DNA from: Chloroflexota bacterium
GTDB lineage: Bacteria > Chloroflexota > Dehalococcoidia > Lucifugimonadales > JADFKI01
Reading direction: 5' to 3'
Assembly: GCA_027623195.1 (NCBI GenBank)
Contig: JAQBUT010000016.1
Span: 18,697 to 82,696, forward strand
DNA length: 64,000 bases
Part shown: in pieces, positions 51,001-60,000 of the stretch
Layout of the letters: each line of letters starts with the position of its first letter
Position numbering within the stretch: the stretch's first letter is position 1
Program-made: the position numbers

Positions 51001-54000
51001 CCAACGCAAGGCCCGTCTTGATGATGTATTCAATGGCCTGTCGATTAATCACCGGGAGCACACCGGGCATGCCCATGCAGACAGGGCAAACAGTCGTGTT
51101 GTGCTCCTCGCCCTGGTAGCCTGCGCTACAAGAGCAGAACATCTTGCTTTGGGTCAGAAGCTGAGAGTGGACCTCTAGTCCAACGACAATCTCGTAATCC
51201 ATATAATCAGTTCTCACAATTCCAGCAGCCGCACTAGCAGCGCAGTAATGGCATCTCCAAAGGTTGCAAATCGTAGTATAAGAAACGCATTACTATGTTA
51301 CAACAGGGTCGCGCTTCAGCATTTAGCTTCAACTAAGCCTCGAGGTCTGACTCTGCCTCCGACCAGGCGTCCGCCCCTATGAGCGGCACGAATCGGCAGC
51401 CTCCCAAGCTTTTTACCGAGAAGCCCTCAGGCGTCCTGACCGCCTTCATCAACTCCTGAGCTTCCAGGGACCCAACGGGAACAACCAGGCGTCCCCGATT
51501 GGCCAACTGCTCCATGATTAGCTTTCGGGGCAGTCTCGGCGCTCCAGCTGAGACTACTATAGCGTCGTAGGGCGCTTCCGGAAGATAGCCAAGCTCTTCC
51601 TCTGCATCATGCACCGTTACGTTGTTGTAACCCAATGCAGATAGTCGCTCTCTGGCCGCGCTCGCCAGTGAGAAAATCCTCTCGACGCTGACGACATCTC
51701 GCGCTAGGATTGAGAGAATAGCCGTCTGATATCCGCTGCCTGTGCCAATCTCCAGCACCTTGTCGGAGCGCCGAAGTTCCAGGGCGCTGACCATAATGGC
51801 GACCATGGTAGGCTGGGATATGGTCTGGCCTTCGCCCATGGGTAATGGAACGTCCTCGTAAGCCTCGTGGGCTAACTCTGCGGGTACGAATTGTTCCCTG
51901 GGAACCCTGCCCATGGCCTGGATGATCCCCTGGTCTTCCACGCGAGTAGACAGGTCACGTAGCAGGCGTTGCCTTGCCTTTTCCAACATTCCACCGTTTC
52001 TTGCTATAAAACAACGAATTCGTTGATATTCGGTCTTTGGAACCGTTTATAATAATGGTACACGTTGCGCCGCAAAGGTCGAATCTCAATTGCGGGCGCT
52101 CCGGTGCCTTCTAGATTCATTGACCCTTCAATATGGCCATGCTAACCTGACTTCATGGCATGACCGTTGGCTATTATCTAATTAGTGAGTGTTGATATGA
52201 CATCCACAATGGAGCTTACAGACAGGCAGATTCTGAACATTATTCAGACTCAATTCCCGCTGGTCGAAAGACCCTTCGCGAGTATCGCGGAAGAGATGAA
52301 CACCTCGGAAGATGATGTCATCGAGCGAATCAAGGACCTAAAAGAAAAGAACGTGGTCCGACAGATAAGCGCTATTTTCGACACGAGGCGTTTGGGCTAC
52401 AAGACGACGCTAGTGGCGATGCGTCTACCTGAAGACAAGCTGGATTCCGGCGCACAGGTGGTTAATGCCCATCCAGGCGTGAGTCACAACTATGCGCGCA
52501 ACGGCCAGTTCAACCTCTGGTTCACACTGGCGGTCCCACCTTATGAGGACTTGAAAGAGACCATCGACGGTATGGCCGAGACGACCGGCGCAGAGTCGGT
52601 CCGCATGATGCCGACGATTAAGTTCTTCAAGATAGGCGTCAATTTCGACATGGTCAAACAAGAGGGCGACGCCAAAGTGTATTACAGTCCCGACGGTTAC
52701 AACGATAAGACAGTCGGCGATAACTGGAATACGGCGGAAACTCTTTCAGACTTCGATATCAACGTCGTCCGCGAGCTGCAAGAGGACATCGAAGTTGTGC
52801 CCCAGCCGTTTAATACTATGGCTGATAAGCTGGGCATTTCGTTGCAGGAGCTTTTCGATGCTGCAGAAGATTTTCAGAAACGCGGGATGATGCGCCGTTT
52901 CAGCGCGGTGCTGCACCACAGGCGGGCGGGCTTCGGCTCTAATGCCATGGCCGTATGGAAGGTTCCGTCAGAGCGTGCGGTCGAGGTCGGCAACCTCATG
53001 GCCCAGTCCCGTTGGGTGACGCACTGCTATGAGAGGCCCACATTCCCCGACTGGGATTACACCCACTTCACGATGATTCACGCAACCTCACAGGACCAGT
53101 GTGAAGAGGTTGCCAAGGATATATCCGAGGCCACTGGAATAAGTGAATACCAGTTGCTTTACAGTACGCGTGAATACAAGAAGACTCGCGTAAGATATTT
53201 CGTTTAGAACAGCCACAGAGGAGAGATAGTGCCTACTACGTACTACCCGGTTTTCATTGATGTTAAGGGCCGCAACTGCATTATTATTGGTGGCGGCAAT
53301 ATTGGCGAAGAAAAGGTTCACAAGCTTCTCGACTGCGACGCCAAGGTCGAAGTCATTAGCCCTGAAGTCAACCAAGGCGTTCAGGAACTGGCAGATAACG
53401 ACAAGCTGGTCTGGCATCAACGCGAGTACCAGAAGGGTGACCTTGCCGGCGCCTTCATCGCCATAGCATCCACTGACAACAATGAGGTCAATCGACAAAT
53501 CGCGGCAGAGGCCCAAGAGCTTAACGTTCTGCTCAACGTTGTGGACGTAACTCACCTCTGCACCTTCATAGCGCCGGCCATTGCGCGACGAGGCGACGTG
53601 ACTATCGCCGCATCCACAGGCGGGGCCAGCCCTGCCTTGGCGCGCAAGTTCCGAGAACTGCTAAACGGTAGCCAGATTGAGTCAACCCACCCCCTTATGG
53701 ACTACGCTGAGCTTGCTCCCTTGCTGGCCGACGCCCGCGCCGAGATTCGGAGCAAGGGCATTACTTTGCTTACCGACCACTGGCAGTCATGCATCACCGA
53801 TAGCCTGGTGGATATGGTGATGGGCGGCAAGTACGATGAGGCCAGGGCAATCCTGATGGCGGACTTGATGAAAGGCACCACCTGCGACTGCAGCGACGGA
53901 GTCTGCAAGATGTGGGAAGAGAAGAAGGAAGTAGTTCTTTCCGCTACTGGCTCGGACAAGAAGGCCACGGTCTAATTTAAAGAGTCTTCTGGTGACAGCT

Positions 54001-57000: not shown

Positions 57001-60000
57001 GCTTATTCTGCCAAGTTCGCGTCGTCGTTTTACGGTCCGTTCCGTGTCGCCGCAGAGTCTTCCCCGGAAACGGGAGACCGTAAGGGTTACCAGATGGACC
57101 CGGCAAATACCCGACAGGCCTTGCGAGAGATACAGCAGGACATCGACGAAGGGGCCGACATAGTCATGGTCAAGCCAGCGTTGGCGTATATGGACGTTAT
57201 CTCCGCAGCCAGGGACGCCTTCGGCTACCCCATGGCGGCCTACAACGTCAGCGGGGAATACGCGATGGTCAAGGCTGCTGCTGAGAATGAGTGGATAGAC
57301 GGTCAGCGCATCACTATGGAGATTCTGACATCCATAAAGCGCGCTGGCGCAGACATGATAATCAGCTACCACGCCAAAGAGGTCGCCCGCTGGCTTGCTG
57401 GTTAACCATAGGCGCCCCTTGTCATCTGGTTAGCCAAATTGAGCGCATGGTCCTTCGTTTCGTCAAAGCGGAGACGAACGGCCCCTCAGATATCCGTTCG
57501 TGGTGAACGCCGATTAATGGAGCATCCTCGACTAAGTCGGGACCTGTCGAACCAAATACTGCCTAACGATATTTCGTGGAAGCTAAACTATCGCTCAGTT
57601 TGCCCGACACTACGCCAAAAGGAGCGCCATCGATGTGGCGGCCAGATTCGGCGGCTGACCCTTCCTATAATCGCTATGGAAGCCACAGGCCCGTAGTCCC
57701 GACTGTCGGTGCTGTGGGCGCGGTTGTCCCCCATCAGGAAGTAGTGGTCGCCGTCCATTTGCCATGAATAGCTTTCCGTACCCAGGTAAGCCGGAAGCCC
57801 ATGCAGGTACGTCTCATGAAGACGCTCACCGTTGATTAACAGCAGGCCGTCCTCCAGAACCAGGAGTTCCCCAGGCATGCCCACTACCCGCTTCACGTAG
57901 TATTGATTCGTGCTGCCAGGTCCGTTAGCTATGACTATGTCCCCGCGGTGCAAGTCCGGGCTTGGCGCTGGCAATTTTCGCACCAGTAGGATGTCGTTAG
58001 GTTGGAGGGCTGGATTCATGCTGATTCCGTCAACGATGTAAATCCAGGGGAGGCTGTAAATCCGCAAATCCATAAATCCATGCATTTATTGCCAACAGAC
58101 GCTAAAACTTGCGCCACGTGAGCGATTAATGTATCTTTTTTAACGATCTTAGAATCACTCTAAAAAGGATGGTACTTCCATGAAACTCCGACAACTTCTA
58201 CCCTACCGGATTGCCGAAGCCCACTGCGACGTGCCCTGCGGCATCTACGATCCCGTTTCGGCCAAAATTGCAGCCCAGACGGTGCTGAAGATGACCATGC
58301 GAATTCAGGGTCTAGAGGGCAACACCTCGGGCTCCCCGCAGGACCGCCAGACCTATGCCAACAACATCGGACGATACGTCGTCGTTAAGGAAGAGCACGC
58401 GACGGTCGCCAAGAAAGAGTTGGACATACTTTGGCACGACTACTTCCGCCCCGACCATCTAGAGGCCTACCCGGACCTGCACACCAAGTTCTGGATGGCC
58501 ACCAAACTCGCTTCCCAGGCCAAGCAGGCCGTGAACCTCGAAGCGGCTCAGCAGCTAGTTGCCGCCGTCGATGACATCGCGAAGATCTTCTGGGCCACCA
58601 AAGGCGTAGAGTACAGCGATCCGAATTCCGCCGTTCGTTTCGGCGCATAGTCCCCACTTCTAGAAACTCTGAAAGGGGCGCTCTATTGAGCGCCCTTTTC
58701 GTCATTGATCCTAATTGATGTTCGGCGTTTCTCTGCTGTCGAATATACCTAGAAACACCGACCACTGTCCCGAGCCTACCAAGCTAAACTCTACCCCACC
58801 TGGAATGAAATATGACTCGCCCTGGCGTACTATTCTTGTCACCCCGCTTATTGTGAACTCCACAGCGCCCTGCATTACGAACCCGCTCTAATCATGGCCG
58901 TGGCTGTGCTTTGGCATAACAGCGTTGGGTGCGATCTCCACCAGGCCTTTAGTGTGGCCCTCCTCCGACATAACTCGTACCGTAATGCCAGGTGCAGGTT
59001 CCCTTCGTTCAATATCATCAGTATCTAAAAGAAATCTCATATCGTAACTAACATCTCTGGTCTCCTGTTTTTAGGGCGTTCATTTTGGCCGACACCCAAA
59101 AATTAAACGGGCATTTCAATCAACGCTCTTTAGGTTTTAGGCGATGTGTTCATCTTCGCCTGAAACGAAAATTATCATGAACAGCGACGAAACCTCGGAG
59201 CCGACAAACCCAATCTCCGCACCACCTGGGACAAGGAACATGTCCCCTTGGCGCACCATTTTGGTCTCACCGTCAATGGTTAGGTCCATCTTCCCCTGCA
59301 TGACCACACCGCTCTTTTCACCGCTGTGACTGTGTTTAGGCATCGTGGCGTTTGGCGCCACTTCGACGAGGCCAGTGGTGAGAGTGTTCTGCAACATAAA
59401 TCTCGCGATGATGCCGGGCGCCATCTCGGCTCGTTTTACCTGTTCGGGATCCACGAAGTATTTCATTTTGAGAGCCTTATTGATCCTTATTGGTAAGTGG
59501 CGGATCCAACGACCCGGTTAGTATTGCAGGCGATATGAGGCCTGGCTGTGAGGAATTCATTAAGTGACATTAACATTAAGGATACTTTACCCTTTAAATT
59601 GTACGTCAGAATTCAGTTCGTGGTTTTCCAAATAAATTAGGCGATTAATACTGAATTTAGGTCTTGTAGTCCTCTCGTGGCGGACTGAATATATCGATGC
59701 ATAGTGACCAACCGTTGGAGCCGACAAGGCTGTGTTGGACGTTGCCTGGAATCATGTATGCGTCGCCCTGGCGCATCGTCTTCGTCTCATCTCCTATGGT
59801 GAACTCGAACTCGCCCTGCAACACAAGGCCACCCTGTTCGTTGGCATGCCTATGAGGTGGAAGCACAGCGTTCGGGGCGATCTCTACCATGCTCATCATG
59901 ATGTTCTCCCCCCACATTATGCGCAAAGTAATGCCAGGGGCCAGTTCCCGCCTCTCAACCTCGCCAGGGTTCATAAAATACTTCATTGGTTTTTCCATGT

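What a model noticed while it worked through the whole genome (the two positions that open the first line are those of the whole stretch)
52197..57405. Heme made from siroheme without the radical-SAM step: fused AhbAB plus ChdC, no AhbC, AhbD or HemE
The hem operon opens with a fused siroheme decarboxylase AhbAB, and coproheme decarboxylase ChdC lies at C40:58593, but AhbC, AhbD, HemE and ferrochelatase are lacking. The step from didecarboxysiroheme to coproheme must be done by something other than the radical-SAM enzyme AhbC: a new, probably oxygen-tolerant variant of the siroheme route.
Evidence so far: Same 31 genomes: AhbAB in 14, of which 13 have ChdC and no AhbC or HemE; the one with AhbC and a second rSAM gene has no ChdC; the 3 with HemE have ChdC and no AhbAB; the other 14 have none of AhbAB, HemE or ChdC. 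So ChdC (16) tracks exactly these two routes. AhbD 0 of 5, ferrochelatase over cut-off 0 of 5, closed genomes included. ahbAB-cysG-(hemA)-hemC-cobA/hemD order in 13 of 13 loci. All seven radical-SAM genes here have other assignments; the genome has two heme-copper oxidases, heme o/a synthases and Ccm.
(Added by a program. Inside this text positions count along the whole contig: contig position 18,697 is position 1 of the stretch shown here. "Call 12" and the like, gene names such as g00115 and contig names such as C1 are that model's own, and its searches are not shown. The text may have been shortened before it was handed on; [...] marks where a part breaks off. The agent that wrote the report below was given it as the finding of a first reader that could run no searches.)

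Follow-up and report, generated by a model that had tools for sequence, protein, structure and literature searches.

The report
Aerobic siroheme-to-heme route, candidate missing enzyme
This bacterium seems to make heme from siroheme without the oxygen-sensitive enzyme known for the middle step, and an unstudied reductase gene 11 kb away, which travels with the same heme genes in other bacteria and archaea, is the likely stand-in.

Summary
Observation confirmed. The operon is ahbAB(fused)-met8/cysG-hemC-cobA/hemD-hemB; chdC is on C40; AhbC, AhbD, HemE, HemY and ferrochelatase were not found. The best candidate is in this window: an aldo-keto reductase (AKR) at 39675-40682. In 151 class genomes it occurs in 51 of 52 with ChdC and no HemE, 0 of 11 with ChdC plus HemE, and 0 of 88 without ChdC; it is next to ahbAB or chdC in 38 of 51. 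In Thermoproteota, 22 of 22 AhbA genomes without an AhbC-like hit carry both AKR and ChdC. Published Sulfolobus islandicus Tn-seq (aerobic) scores AhbAB, ChdC, SUMT and the AKR orthologue as essential and the AhbC/AhbD-like pair as dispensable; that pair was also deleted in viable strains. Against: 18 ChdC-less Thermoproteota genomes with AhbC-like genes keep a diverged AKR, and no chemistry is shown. The scan noted the same module before on other DNA (two notes); the genetic evidence is new here. New variant of the siroheme route.

The parts
52197..53207 (+). fused siroheme decarboxylase AhbAB (ATG 52197; in-frame GTG at 52185)
   Evidence: NF040708 277 bits, NF040707 261 bits, both over cut-off; H97-N-Y99-x-R101 and H276-C-Y278-x-R280 invariant in 19 sequences
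53229..53975 (+). precorrin-2 dehydrogenase / sirohydrochlorin chelatase (Met8p / CysG N-terminal type)
   Evidence: TIGR01470 145.6 bits, cut-off 62.3; PF13241 and PF14824
53992..54912 (+). hemC, hydroxymethylbilane synthase
   Evidence: TIGR00212 321 bits, cut-off 164
54909..56423 (+). fused uroporphyrinogen-III C-methyltransferase (SUMT/CobA) and HemD
   Evidence: TIGR01469 311 bits, cut-off 185; PF00590 and PF02602
56428..57405 (+). hemB, porphobilinogen synthase
   Evidence: NF006762 504 bits, cut-off 297
39675..40682 (+). aldo-keto reductase of a heme-linked subfamily; candidate for the didecarboxysiroheme-to-coproheme step
   Evidence: PF00248; profile 51 of 52 against 0 of 11 and 0 of 88; next to ahbAB or chdC in 38 of 51; S. 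islandicus orthologue essential
39035..39628 (+). DUF1802 protein, frequent but not obligatory neighbour of the AKR
   Evidence: PF08819 209 bits; within the locus in 46 of 80 bacterial and 41 of 49 thaumarchaeal AKR loci; in only 20 of 51 AKR genomes of the class

Best explanation
The organism makes heme b by an aerobic form of the siroheme route. HemA (C47), HemB, HemC and HemD give uroporphyrinogen III; SUMT and the Met8-type protein give siroheme; fused AhbAB gives 12,18-didecarboxysiroheme (DDSH). [quoted passage not shown] Shown here: the gene set, the absences, the co-occurrence, the gene neighbourhoods, the AKR fold and its conserved residues. Shown by others, in one archaeon: essentiality of AhbAB, ChdC, SUMT and the AKR, and dispensability of the AhbC/AhbD-like pair. 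Inferred: that the AKR acts on DDSH, and how. My preferred chemistry is speculative: oxidation at C3/C8 (hydride to NAD(P)+, or one-electron oxidation by Fe/O2) activates the ring, the C2-CH2 bond breaks as the ring aromatises, and the two-carbon unit leaves as acetate (hydride returned) or as glycolate/glyoxylate.
For: Profile in 151 class genomes: AKR orthologue (E<=1e-80, next hit 1e-66) in 51 of 52 ChdC+/HemE-, 0 of 11 ChdC+/HemE+, 0 of 88 ChdC-, 0 of 31 AhbC+/ChdC-; 50 of the 51 have AhbAB, canonical or divergent. AKR and ChdC are present or absent together inside families f2, f16, f21, f26, f31; in f28, G025 has AhbAB+AKR and no HemE or ferrochelatase while seven relatives have HemE and no AKR. 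Next to ahbAB or chdC in 38 of 51 (hand count); ChdC within 8 kb in 44 of 49 thaumarchaeal loci, within 6 kb in 18 of 80 haloarchaeal loci and in 21 of 80 bacterial loci, Rubrobacteraceae among them. Thermoproteota: 22 of 22 AhbA genomes with no TIGR04546 hit at 1e-45 have AKR and ChdC. S. islandicus M.16.4 Tn-seq, grown in air (PMC6249222, supplement 7): AhbAB log2FC -10.7, ChdC -9.6, AKR M164_1723 -7.6 (index 0), SUMT -5.7, HemA -8.2, HemB -8.9 essential; the radical-SAM pair +1.0/+1.1, all 5 arCOG00938 genes and the other 3 AKRs not essential; no COG0407, COG0276 or COG1232 rows. Orthology of M164_1723 by identical neighbours and length. Deletion 799,829-872,413 in viable REY15A strains removes SiRe_0907 and all but 26 bp of SiRe_0908 (PMC13337030). 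ChdC of HemE genomes nests among ChdC of AhbAB genomes, so it looks like an ordinary coproheme enzyme. G063 keeps hemB, hemC and met8 but lacks AKR, AhbA and ChdC, which places the AKR after siroheme.
Against: No activity is shown, and C-C cleavage at a quaternary carbon is not known AKR chemistry (recalled). 18 of 131 Thermoproteota genomes have an AKR orthologue (17 of a diverged clade that lost the WxxxxxWWG motif) with AhbC-like hits and no ChdC; 8 of these have no COX1 hit. 7 class genomes have AKR and AhbC together. In this genome the AKR is 11.5 kb from ahbAB. The orthologue clade has only SH-aLRT 85 in a quick tree. In the Tn-seq, hemC (-2.3, index 4), hemD, hemL, met8 (-1.1, index 9) and cbiX were not called essential, the AKR lies among other essential genes, and heme rescue was not tested. 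I recall a report that S. solfataricus ChdC was inactive on coproheme in vitro; the paper was not held. Kin are not independent, so the counts overstate. The own bin is 87% complete.
Confidence: 0.62

Rival explanations
1. The route is real, but the AKR is a helper. It reduces air-oxidised DDSH lactones (or the iron) back to substrate, or carries the tetrapyrrole, while ChdC's peroxide/tyrosyl-radical chemistry or an unlinked enzyme removes the acetates.
For: DDSH forms lactones at the ring A/B acetates in air (PMC12505453, passages). The AKR follows AhbAB more widely than it follows absence of AhbC: 40 of 43 AhbA genomes in Thermoproteota, and 18 genomes with AhbC-like hits and no ChdC. Catalytic tetrad of an ordinary reductase is kept.
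Against: ChdC sequences of AhbAB and HemE genomes are interleaved, and I saw no distinguishing column by eye. Clustering ORFs of about 140 loci from six groups gave only the AKR and the AhbAB/ChdC cluster in all six. A repair role fits essentiality less well than a pathway step (inference).
Confidence: 0.22
2. The AKR acts before siroheme (a second precorrin-2 dehydrogenase), or AhbAB plus AKR act as a HemE substitute on unmethylated uroporphyrin(ogen).
For: met8 and cbiX are not essential in S. islandicus; Storbeck's table lists no precorrin-2 dehydrogenase for S. solfataricus.
Against: SUMT is essential in S. islandicus. G110 has no sulfite/nitrite reductase domain and no CbiC yet keeps met8 and cobA/hemD in one cluster with akr-ahbAB. 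G063 keeps siroheme genes without the AKR. As a dehydrogenase it would leave the acetate step unexplained.
Confidence: 0.07
3. Heme or coproheme is taken up, and AhbAB makes DDSH for another product.
For: 30 of 99 COX1 genomes of the class have no ChdC, AhbC, HemE or over-cut-off AhbA, several closed, so living without a known late route is possible in this class. This genome can use sirohydrochlorin for B12.
Against: AhbAB, AKR and ChdC are kept or lost together and are often adjacent. No NirJ-like radical-SAM gene. HemA, HemB, AhbAB and ChdC are essential in S. islandicus. I did not search for heme transporters, NirF or NirS.
Confidence: 0.05
4. AhbC/AhbD or HemE/HemY/HemH are simply missing from an 87% bin or too diverged to detect.
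For: Bin completeness 87%; no class genome reaches the AhbC cut-off, so the model is imperfect.
Against: 13 single-contig relatives show the same set; the same searches find AhbC at E<1e-140 in 38, HemE in 13 and ferrochelatase in 4 of 4 HemE genomes tested.
Confidence: 0.02

Closest known systems
Siroheme-dependent (AHB/SHD) heme pathway of Desulfovibrio and Methanosarcina: SUMT, precorrin-2 dehydrogenase/chelatase, AhbA/B, AhbC, AhbD (PMC10114771, PMC13564367, passages)
   Same: SUMT, Met8-type enzyme and AhbAB are present and clustered with hemB/C/D.
   Different: No AhbC or AhbD; ChdC for the last step; an AKR tracks the gap; hosts carry heme-copper oxidases.
Haloferax volcanii heme synthesis: AhbA/B, AhbC, then PitA/ChdC in air or AhbD without air (PMC5746218)
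   Same: AhbAB with ChdC and no UroD, CgoX or CpfC. [quoted passage not shown] Haloarchaea carry the AKR (H. volcanii itself not checked).
   Different: H. volcanii has AhbC and AhbD; here both are missing, so the gap cannot be filled by AhbC.
Coproporphyrin-dependent pathway (UroD/HemE, CgoX/HemY, CpfC/HemH, ChdC)
   Same: ChdC as last step; the same ChdC subfamily serves it in 11 class genomes.
   Different: HemE, HemY and HemH not found; coproheme would come from DDSH.
Aldo-keto reductases of family 11 (AKR11A 1pyf, AKR11C1 1ynp) and perakine reductase
   Same: TIM barrel (Foldseek E 3e-24, TM 0.78); D52, Y57, K82, H130 align with the usual tetrad.
   Different: 27-29% identity; subfamily motifs W21/W27/W28-G29, G163-P164, R213-V-P-H216-x-S218 and D235-H236-R237-x-x-R240; no named NCBIfam family over cut-off.

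Membership tests
Siroheme-dependent (AHB) pathway | SUMT and precorrin-2 dehydrogenase/chelatase | tested here: met
   TIGR01469 and TIGR01470 over cut-off; chelatase activity not testable
Siroheme-dependent (AHB) pathway | AhbA and AhbB siroheme decarboxylase | tested here: met
   NF040708 277/140, NF040707 261/125
Siroheme-dependent (AHB) pathway | radical-SAM AhbC | tested here: not met
   no TIGR04546 hit at 1e-20; 8 radical-SAM hits all assigned otherwise
Siroheme-dependent (AHB) pathway | radical-SAM AhbD | tested here: not met
   TIGR04053 best 47.5 bits, on HpnH
Coproporphyrin-dependent pathway | UroD/HemE | tested here: not met
   only URO-D hit is MtaA/CmuA
Coproporphyrin-dependent pathway | CgoX/HemY and CpfC/HemH | tested here: not met
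   0 of 5 genomes over cut-off for each, own genome included
Coproheme decarboxylase ChdC | chlorite-dismutase fold family with Y-P-M/F-x-K/R motif and proximal His, no distal Arg (motif recalled) | tested here: met
   PF06778 191 bits; aligns with Tyr and His of solved coproheme decarboxylases; under NCBIfam cut-offs, 136/235
Coproheme decarboxylase ChdC | peroxide-dependent coproheme to heme b activity | not testable with these tools
   needs an assay
Heme d1 pathway | NirJ radical-SAM enzyme | tested here: not met
   no hit to the close homologue AhbC at 1e-20 and no unassigned radical-SAM gene
Heme d1 pathway | NirF, NirN, NirS | not tested
   no search run
Aldo-keto reductase superfamily | (beta/alpha)8 barrel | tested here: met
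   model pLDDT 89.4; Foldseek top hits all AKR fold
Aldo-keto reductase superfamily | Asp-Tyr-Lys-His tetrad (assignment recalled) | tested here: met
   D52, Y57, K82, H130 invariant in 19 class sequences; Y57, H130 invariant, K82 nearly so, D52 mostly kept in 17 cross-domain sequences
Aldo-keto reductase superfamily | NAD(P)H-dependent carbonyl reduction | not testable with these tools
   needs an assay

The most novel reading that the evidence does not exclude
The AKR is a new kind of NAD(P)-dependent enzyme that cleaves the two acetate side chains from didecarboxysiroheme. With AhbAB and ChdC it forms a fourth, radical-SAM-free heme route used in air by SAR202-type Dehalococcoidia, ammonia-oxidising archaea, Sulfolobales, haloarchaea and Rubrobacteria.
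Probability: 0.55. Interest if true: 0.92.

Novelty: new variant of a known kind. Interest (0 to 1): 0.83.

Why it matters
Reviews list three heme routes (PMC13564367, passages). The lack of AhbC/AhbD in S. acidocaldarius, Haloquadratum and Nitrosopumilus was noted in 2010 and read as doubt that they make heme (PMC3004389); a hidden aerobic source of coproheme in Haloferax was left open in 2017 (PMC5746218). Here the gap gets a named candidate gene with locus tags in genetically tractable strains (M164_1723, SiRe_1572, Saci_0848, SSO0430; Halobacterium AAG20187.1), so the question can be tested directly. If true, it explains heme synthesis in abundant marine and soil microbes, adds unusual chemistry to the AKR fold, and offers an air-stable siroheme-to-heme route for engineering.

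Tried and rejected
URO-D hit on C7 as HemE: rejected, it is MtaA/CmuA and also occurs in G022, G047, G067, which lack ChdC. HemW or the weak B12-binding radical-SAM gene as AhbC: no AhbC score. DUF1802 as the substitute: only 20 of 51 AKR genomes, and 3 genomes without the AKR. Thermoproteales radical-SAM hits as mere AhbD (which would have removed the counter-examples): rejected, an AhbC-like and an AhbD-like gene are both there in the loci scored. ChdC with a changed substrate: no separating signal. Complex prediction AhbAB + AKR: no verdict, score 0.00; not used either way. Protein Atlas gave only generic AKR clusters. The careful tree did not finish; the quick tree was used. A Fisher test is not relied on because kin are not independent. 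Literature searches for this route or this AKR: searches listed reviews and the papers cited, none with 'keto reductase'; searches found nothing; one search found no Haloferax essentiality set. No read mapping or expression check was run.
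Full report
Observation. The five genes at 52197-57405 are fused ahbAB, a Met8p/CysG N-terminal protein, hemC, cobA-hemD and hemB, all over their NCBIfam cut-offs. hemA lies on C47 and chdC on C40. The genome has 7 radical-SAM genes over the Pfam cut-off and one weak hit, assigned as MoaA, HemW, MiaB, MtaB, QueE-like, LipA, HpnH and a B12-binding type; none scores as AhbC or AhbD. Ferrochelatase and HemY were not found in this genome or four single-contig relatives, while the ferrochelatase search found 4 of 4 HemE genomes tested. The one URO-D hit is an MtaA/CmuA methyltransferase beside a corrinoid protein. 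Two COX1 genes, CtaB and CtaA show a need for heme. A cobalt-early B12 cluster on C61 gives sirohydrochlorin a second use in this genome; the four relatives tested lack CbiC, and G110 also lacks a sulfite/nitrite reductase domain.

Distribution in the class. The same 151 genomes were searched for AhbA, ChdC, AhbC, URO-D, the AKR, DUF1802 and COX1 (tallies). I counted AhbC at E<1e-140 (38 genomes; weaker hits dropped as other SPASM proteins or AhbD) and HemE at more than 330 bits (13 genomes; hits of 141-233 bits dropped, the own one shown to be MtaA/CmuA). AhbA over cut-off: 57. Of these 31 have ChdC, 27 of them without AhbC, and none has HemE. Weak AhbA hits in 19 further ChdC genomes proved to be a divergent fused AhbAB of about 25% identity. 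All 63 ChdC genomes have COX1; 28 of the 31 AhbC+/ChdC- genomes have none.

The candidate. Reading the loci showed an aldo-keto reductase between or beside ahbAB and chdC; its orthologue in this genome is at window 39675-40682, 11.5 kb from ahbAB. At E<=1e-80 (42% identity or more; the next hit is at 1e-66) it is in 51 of 52 ChdC+/HemE- genomes (the miss, G054, has 460 contigs), 0 of 11 ChdC+/HemE+ and 0 of 88 ChdC- genomes. 50 of the 51 have AhbAB; none was found in G020. It is next to ahbAB or chdC in 38 of 51 (hand count). AKR and ChdC are present or absent together within families f2, f16, f21, f26 and f31 (G067 of f2 has a weak AhbA hit that I did not inspect). In f28 one genome uses AhbAB+AKR and seven use HemE. 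The 7 genomes with both AhbC and ChdC all have the AKR. Kin are not independent, so these counts overstate the number of events.

Beyond the class. In 49 thaumarchaeal loci ChdC was near in 44 and AhbAB in 25; in 80 haloarchaeal loci ChdC/PitA was near in 18. No HemE was found in 5 of 5 such genomes tested; the Omnitrophota genome has AhbC. In 131 Thermoproteota genomes I counted 44 AKR orthologues, by motifs and tree for those fetched and by score for the rest. 26 of 27 ChdC genomes and 40 of 43 AhbA genomes have it, and 22 of 22 AhbA genomes without an AhbC-like hit have both AKR and ChdC. Against a strict pairing with ChdC: 18 genomes have the AKR, AhbC-like hits and no ChdC; in the loci scored both an AhbC-like and an AhbD-like gene are present; 17 belong to a diverged clade without the WWG motif, and 8 have no COX1 hit.

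Published genetics. In S. islandicus M.16.4, grown in air on dextrin-tryptone medium (PMC6249222; passages and rows of supplements 1 and 7; essential means log2FC <= -5.1 and index < 4), AhbAB (M164_1901, the orthologue of SSO0245/Saci_0711 in Storbeck's table) scores -10.7, ChdC -9.6, SUMT -5.7, HemA -8.2, HemB -8.9 and the AKR M164_1723 -7.6 with index 0. The other three AKRs and all five arCOG00938 radical-SAM genes, the AhbC/AhbD-like pair among them, are not essential. M164_1723 lies between Bud32-RdgB and a small gene-NtpC; the AKR orthologue has the same neighbours in the five Sulfolobales loci read. One of these proteins clusters at 90% with S. acidocaldarius AAY80215.1, which is 35% identical to the window protein. 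The gene downstream of the AKR is convergent and dispensable, so polarity is an unlikely cause (inference). In REY15A a viable deletion removes SiRe_0907 and nearly all of SiRe_0908 (PMC13337030; passages, section 8, supplement 1 parts 2-3). Neither paper mentions heme in its main text. Caveats: hemC, hemD, hemL, met8 and cbiX were not called essential, heme was not measured, and this is one archaeal species, not this organism.

The protein. The model is a confident AKR barrel (pLDDT 89.4; nearest solved structures AKR11A/11C1 at 27-29% identity) with the tetrad D52, Y57, K82, H130. Subfamily marks are W21/W27/W28, G163-P164, R213-V-P-H216-x-S218 and D235-H236-R237-x-x-R240. Basic and aromatic residues of this kind would suit a polycarboxylate metalloporphyrin, but that is inference; no ligand was docked. 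At least 6075 clusters match at 1e-60, and those listed carry only generic names.

Mechanism. AhbC removes two acetates from DDSH and has hardly been studied in pure form (PMC10114771, passages); a radical fragmentation with quenching is proposed, and DDSH forms lactones in air (PMC12505453, passages). The net change is loss of acetic acid per ring. I propose that the AKR carries out this step by transient oxidation at C3/C8 followed by C-C cleavage (0.62). The main rival is that it repairs or protects air-oxidised DDSH while ChdC or an unlinked enzyme cleaves (0.22). The existence of an AhbC-independent route is better supported than the AKR's exact role (about 0.85).

Novelty. The gap was noted for three archaea in 2010 (PMC3004389; passages and section 19) and an unknown aerobic route was left open for Haloferax in 2017 (PMC5746218; part 1 of 6 and passages). 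A 2021 annotation review (PMC8305020, passages) and a 2026 review (PMC13564367, passages) give AhbC or three routes only. Searches found no paper linking an AKR to heme synthesis; subscription journals and bioRxiv supplements are not covered, so prior mention there is possible. Two earlier notes of this scan describe the same AKR-AhbAB-ChdC module on other DNA; I consulted them after finding it, and they are not independent support. Verdict: a real new variant of the siroheme route with a testable candidate enzyme.

Noticed in passing
L067:7947-9077 and L392-L404: A divergent fused AhbAB family (about 25% identity to the window protein, under the NCBIfam cut-offs, close to each other) in 19 class genomes with AKR and ChdC; G076 has both types.
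   Followed up: partly
class sample, e.g. L412, L413, L414 (G063, G071, G122): 30 of 99 COX1 genomes have no ChdC, AhbC, HemE or over-cut-off AhbA; 3 of 5 tested, all single-contig, keep hemB. Heme uptake or yet another route.
   Followed up: partly
window 39035-39628: DUF1802 sits beside the AKR in bacteria and in thaumarchaea (chdC-DUF1802-akr), though it is not required.
   Followed up: partly
L415 (G000:C61:40001-60000): Cobalt-early cobalamin cluster (cbiC, cbiX, cbiD, cbiT, cbiL, cbiF, cbiG, cbiH, cbiA); CbiC not found in four relatives.
   Followed up: partly
G000:C7:464-6935: MtaA/CmuA methyltransferase, corrinoid protein and what look like a homocysteine methyltransferase domain and a RamA-type activator: a methyl-transfer cluster.
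   Followed up: no
G110 (L078): Single-contig genome with a full hem-akr-ahbAB cluster but no hemA over cut-off.
   Followed up: no
L411 (G114): chdC lies two genes from a sulfite/nitrite reductase; this genome's hemA match has one internal TGA.
   Followed up: no
L072 (G001): Two tandem fused ahbAB copies.
   Followed up: no
L360:4908-5783: AhbC-like ORF of 292 aa against 369-377 aa in relatives; possibly decaying in a genome with AKR and ChdC.
   Followed up: no
window 53900-53975: The Met8-type protein ends in a Cys-rich tail (three Cys within eight residues), a possible metal site.
   Followed up: no
window 57588-58650: Nickel superoxide dismutase with a divergent S26 peptidase directly after the hem operon.
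   Followed up: no
window 40637-41479: EVE-domain gene overlapping the 3' end of the AKR on the other strand.
   Followed up: no
window 10108-11175: HpnH beside a polyprenyl synthase-like gene: hopanoid synthesis.
   Followed up: no
PMC6249222 supplement 7 (orthologues of window 53229-53975): The precorrin-2 dehydrogenase/chelatase and CbiX are not essential in aerobic S. islandicus although SUMT and AhbAB are; how siroheme forms there is unexplained.
   Followed up: no
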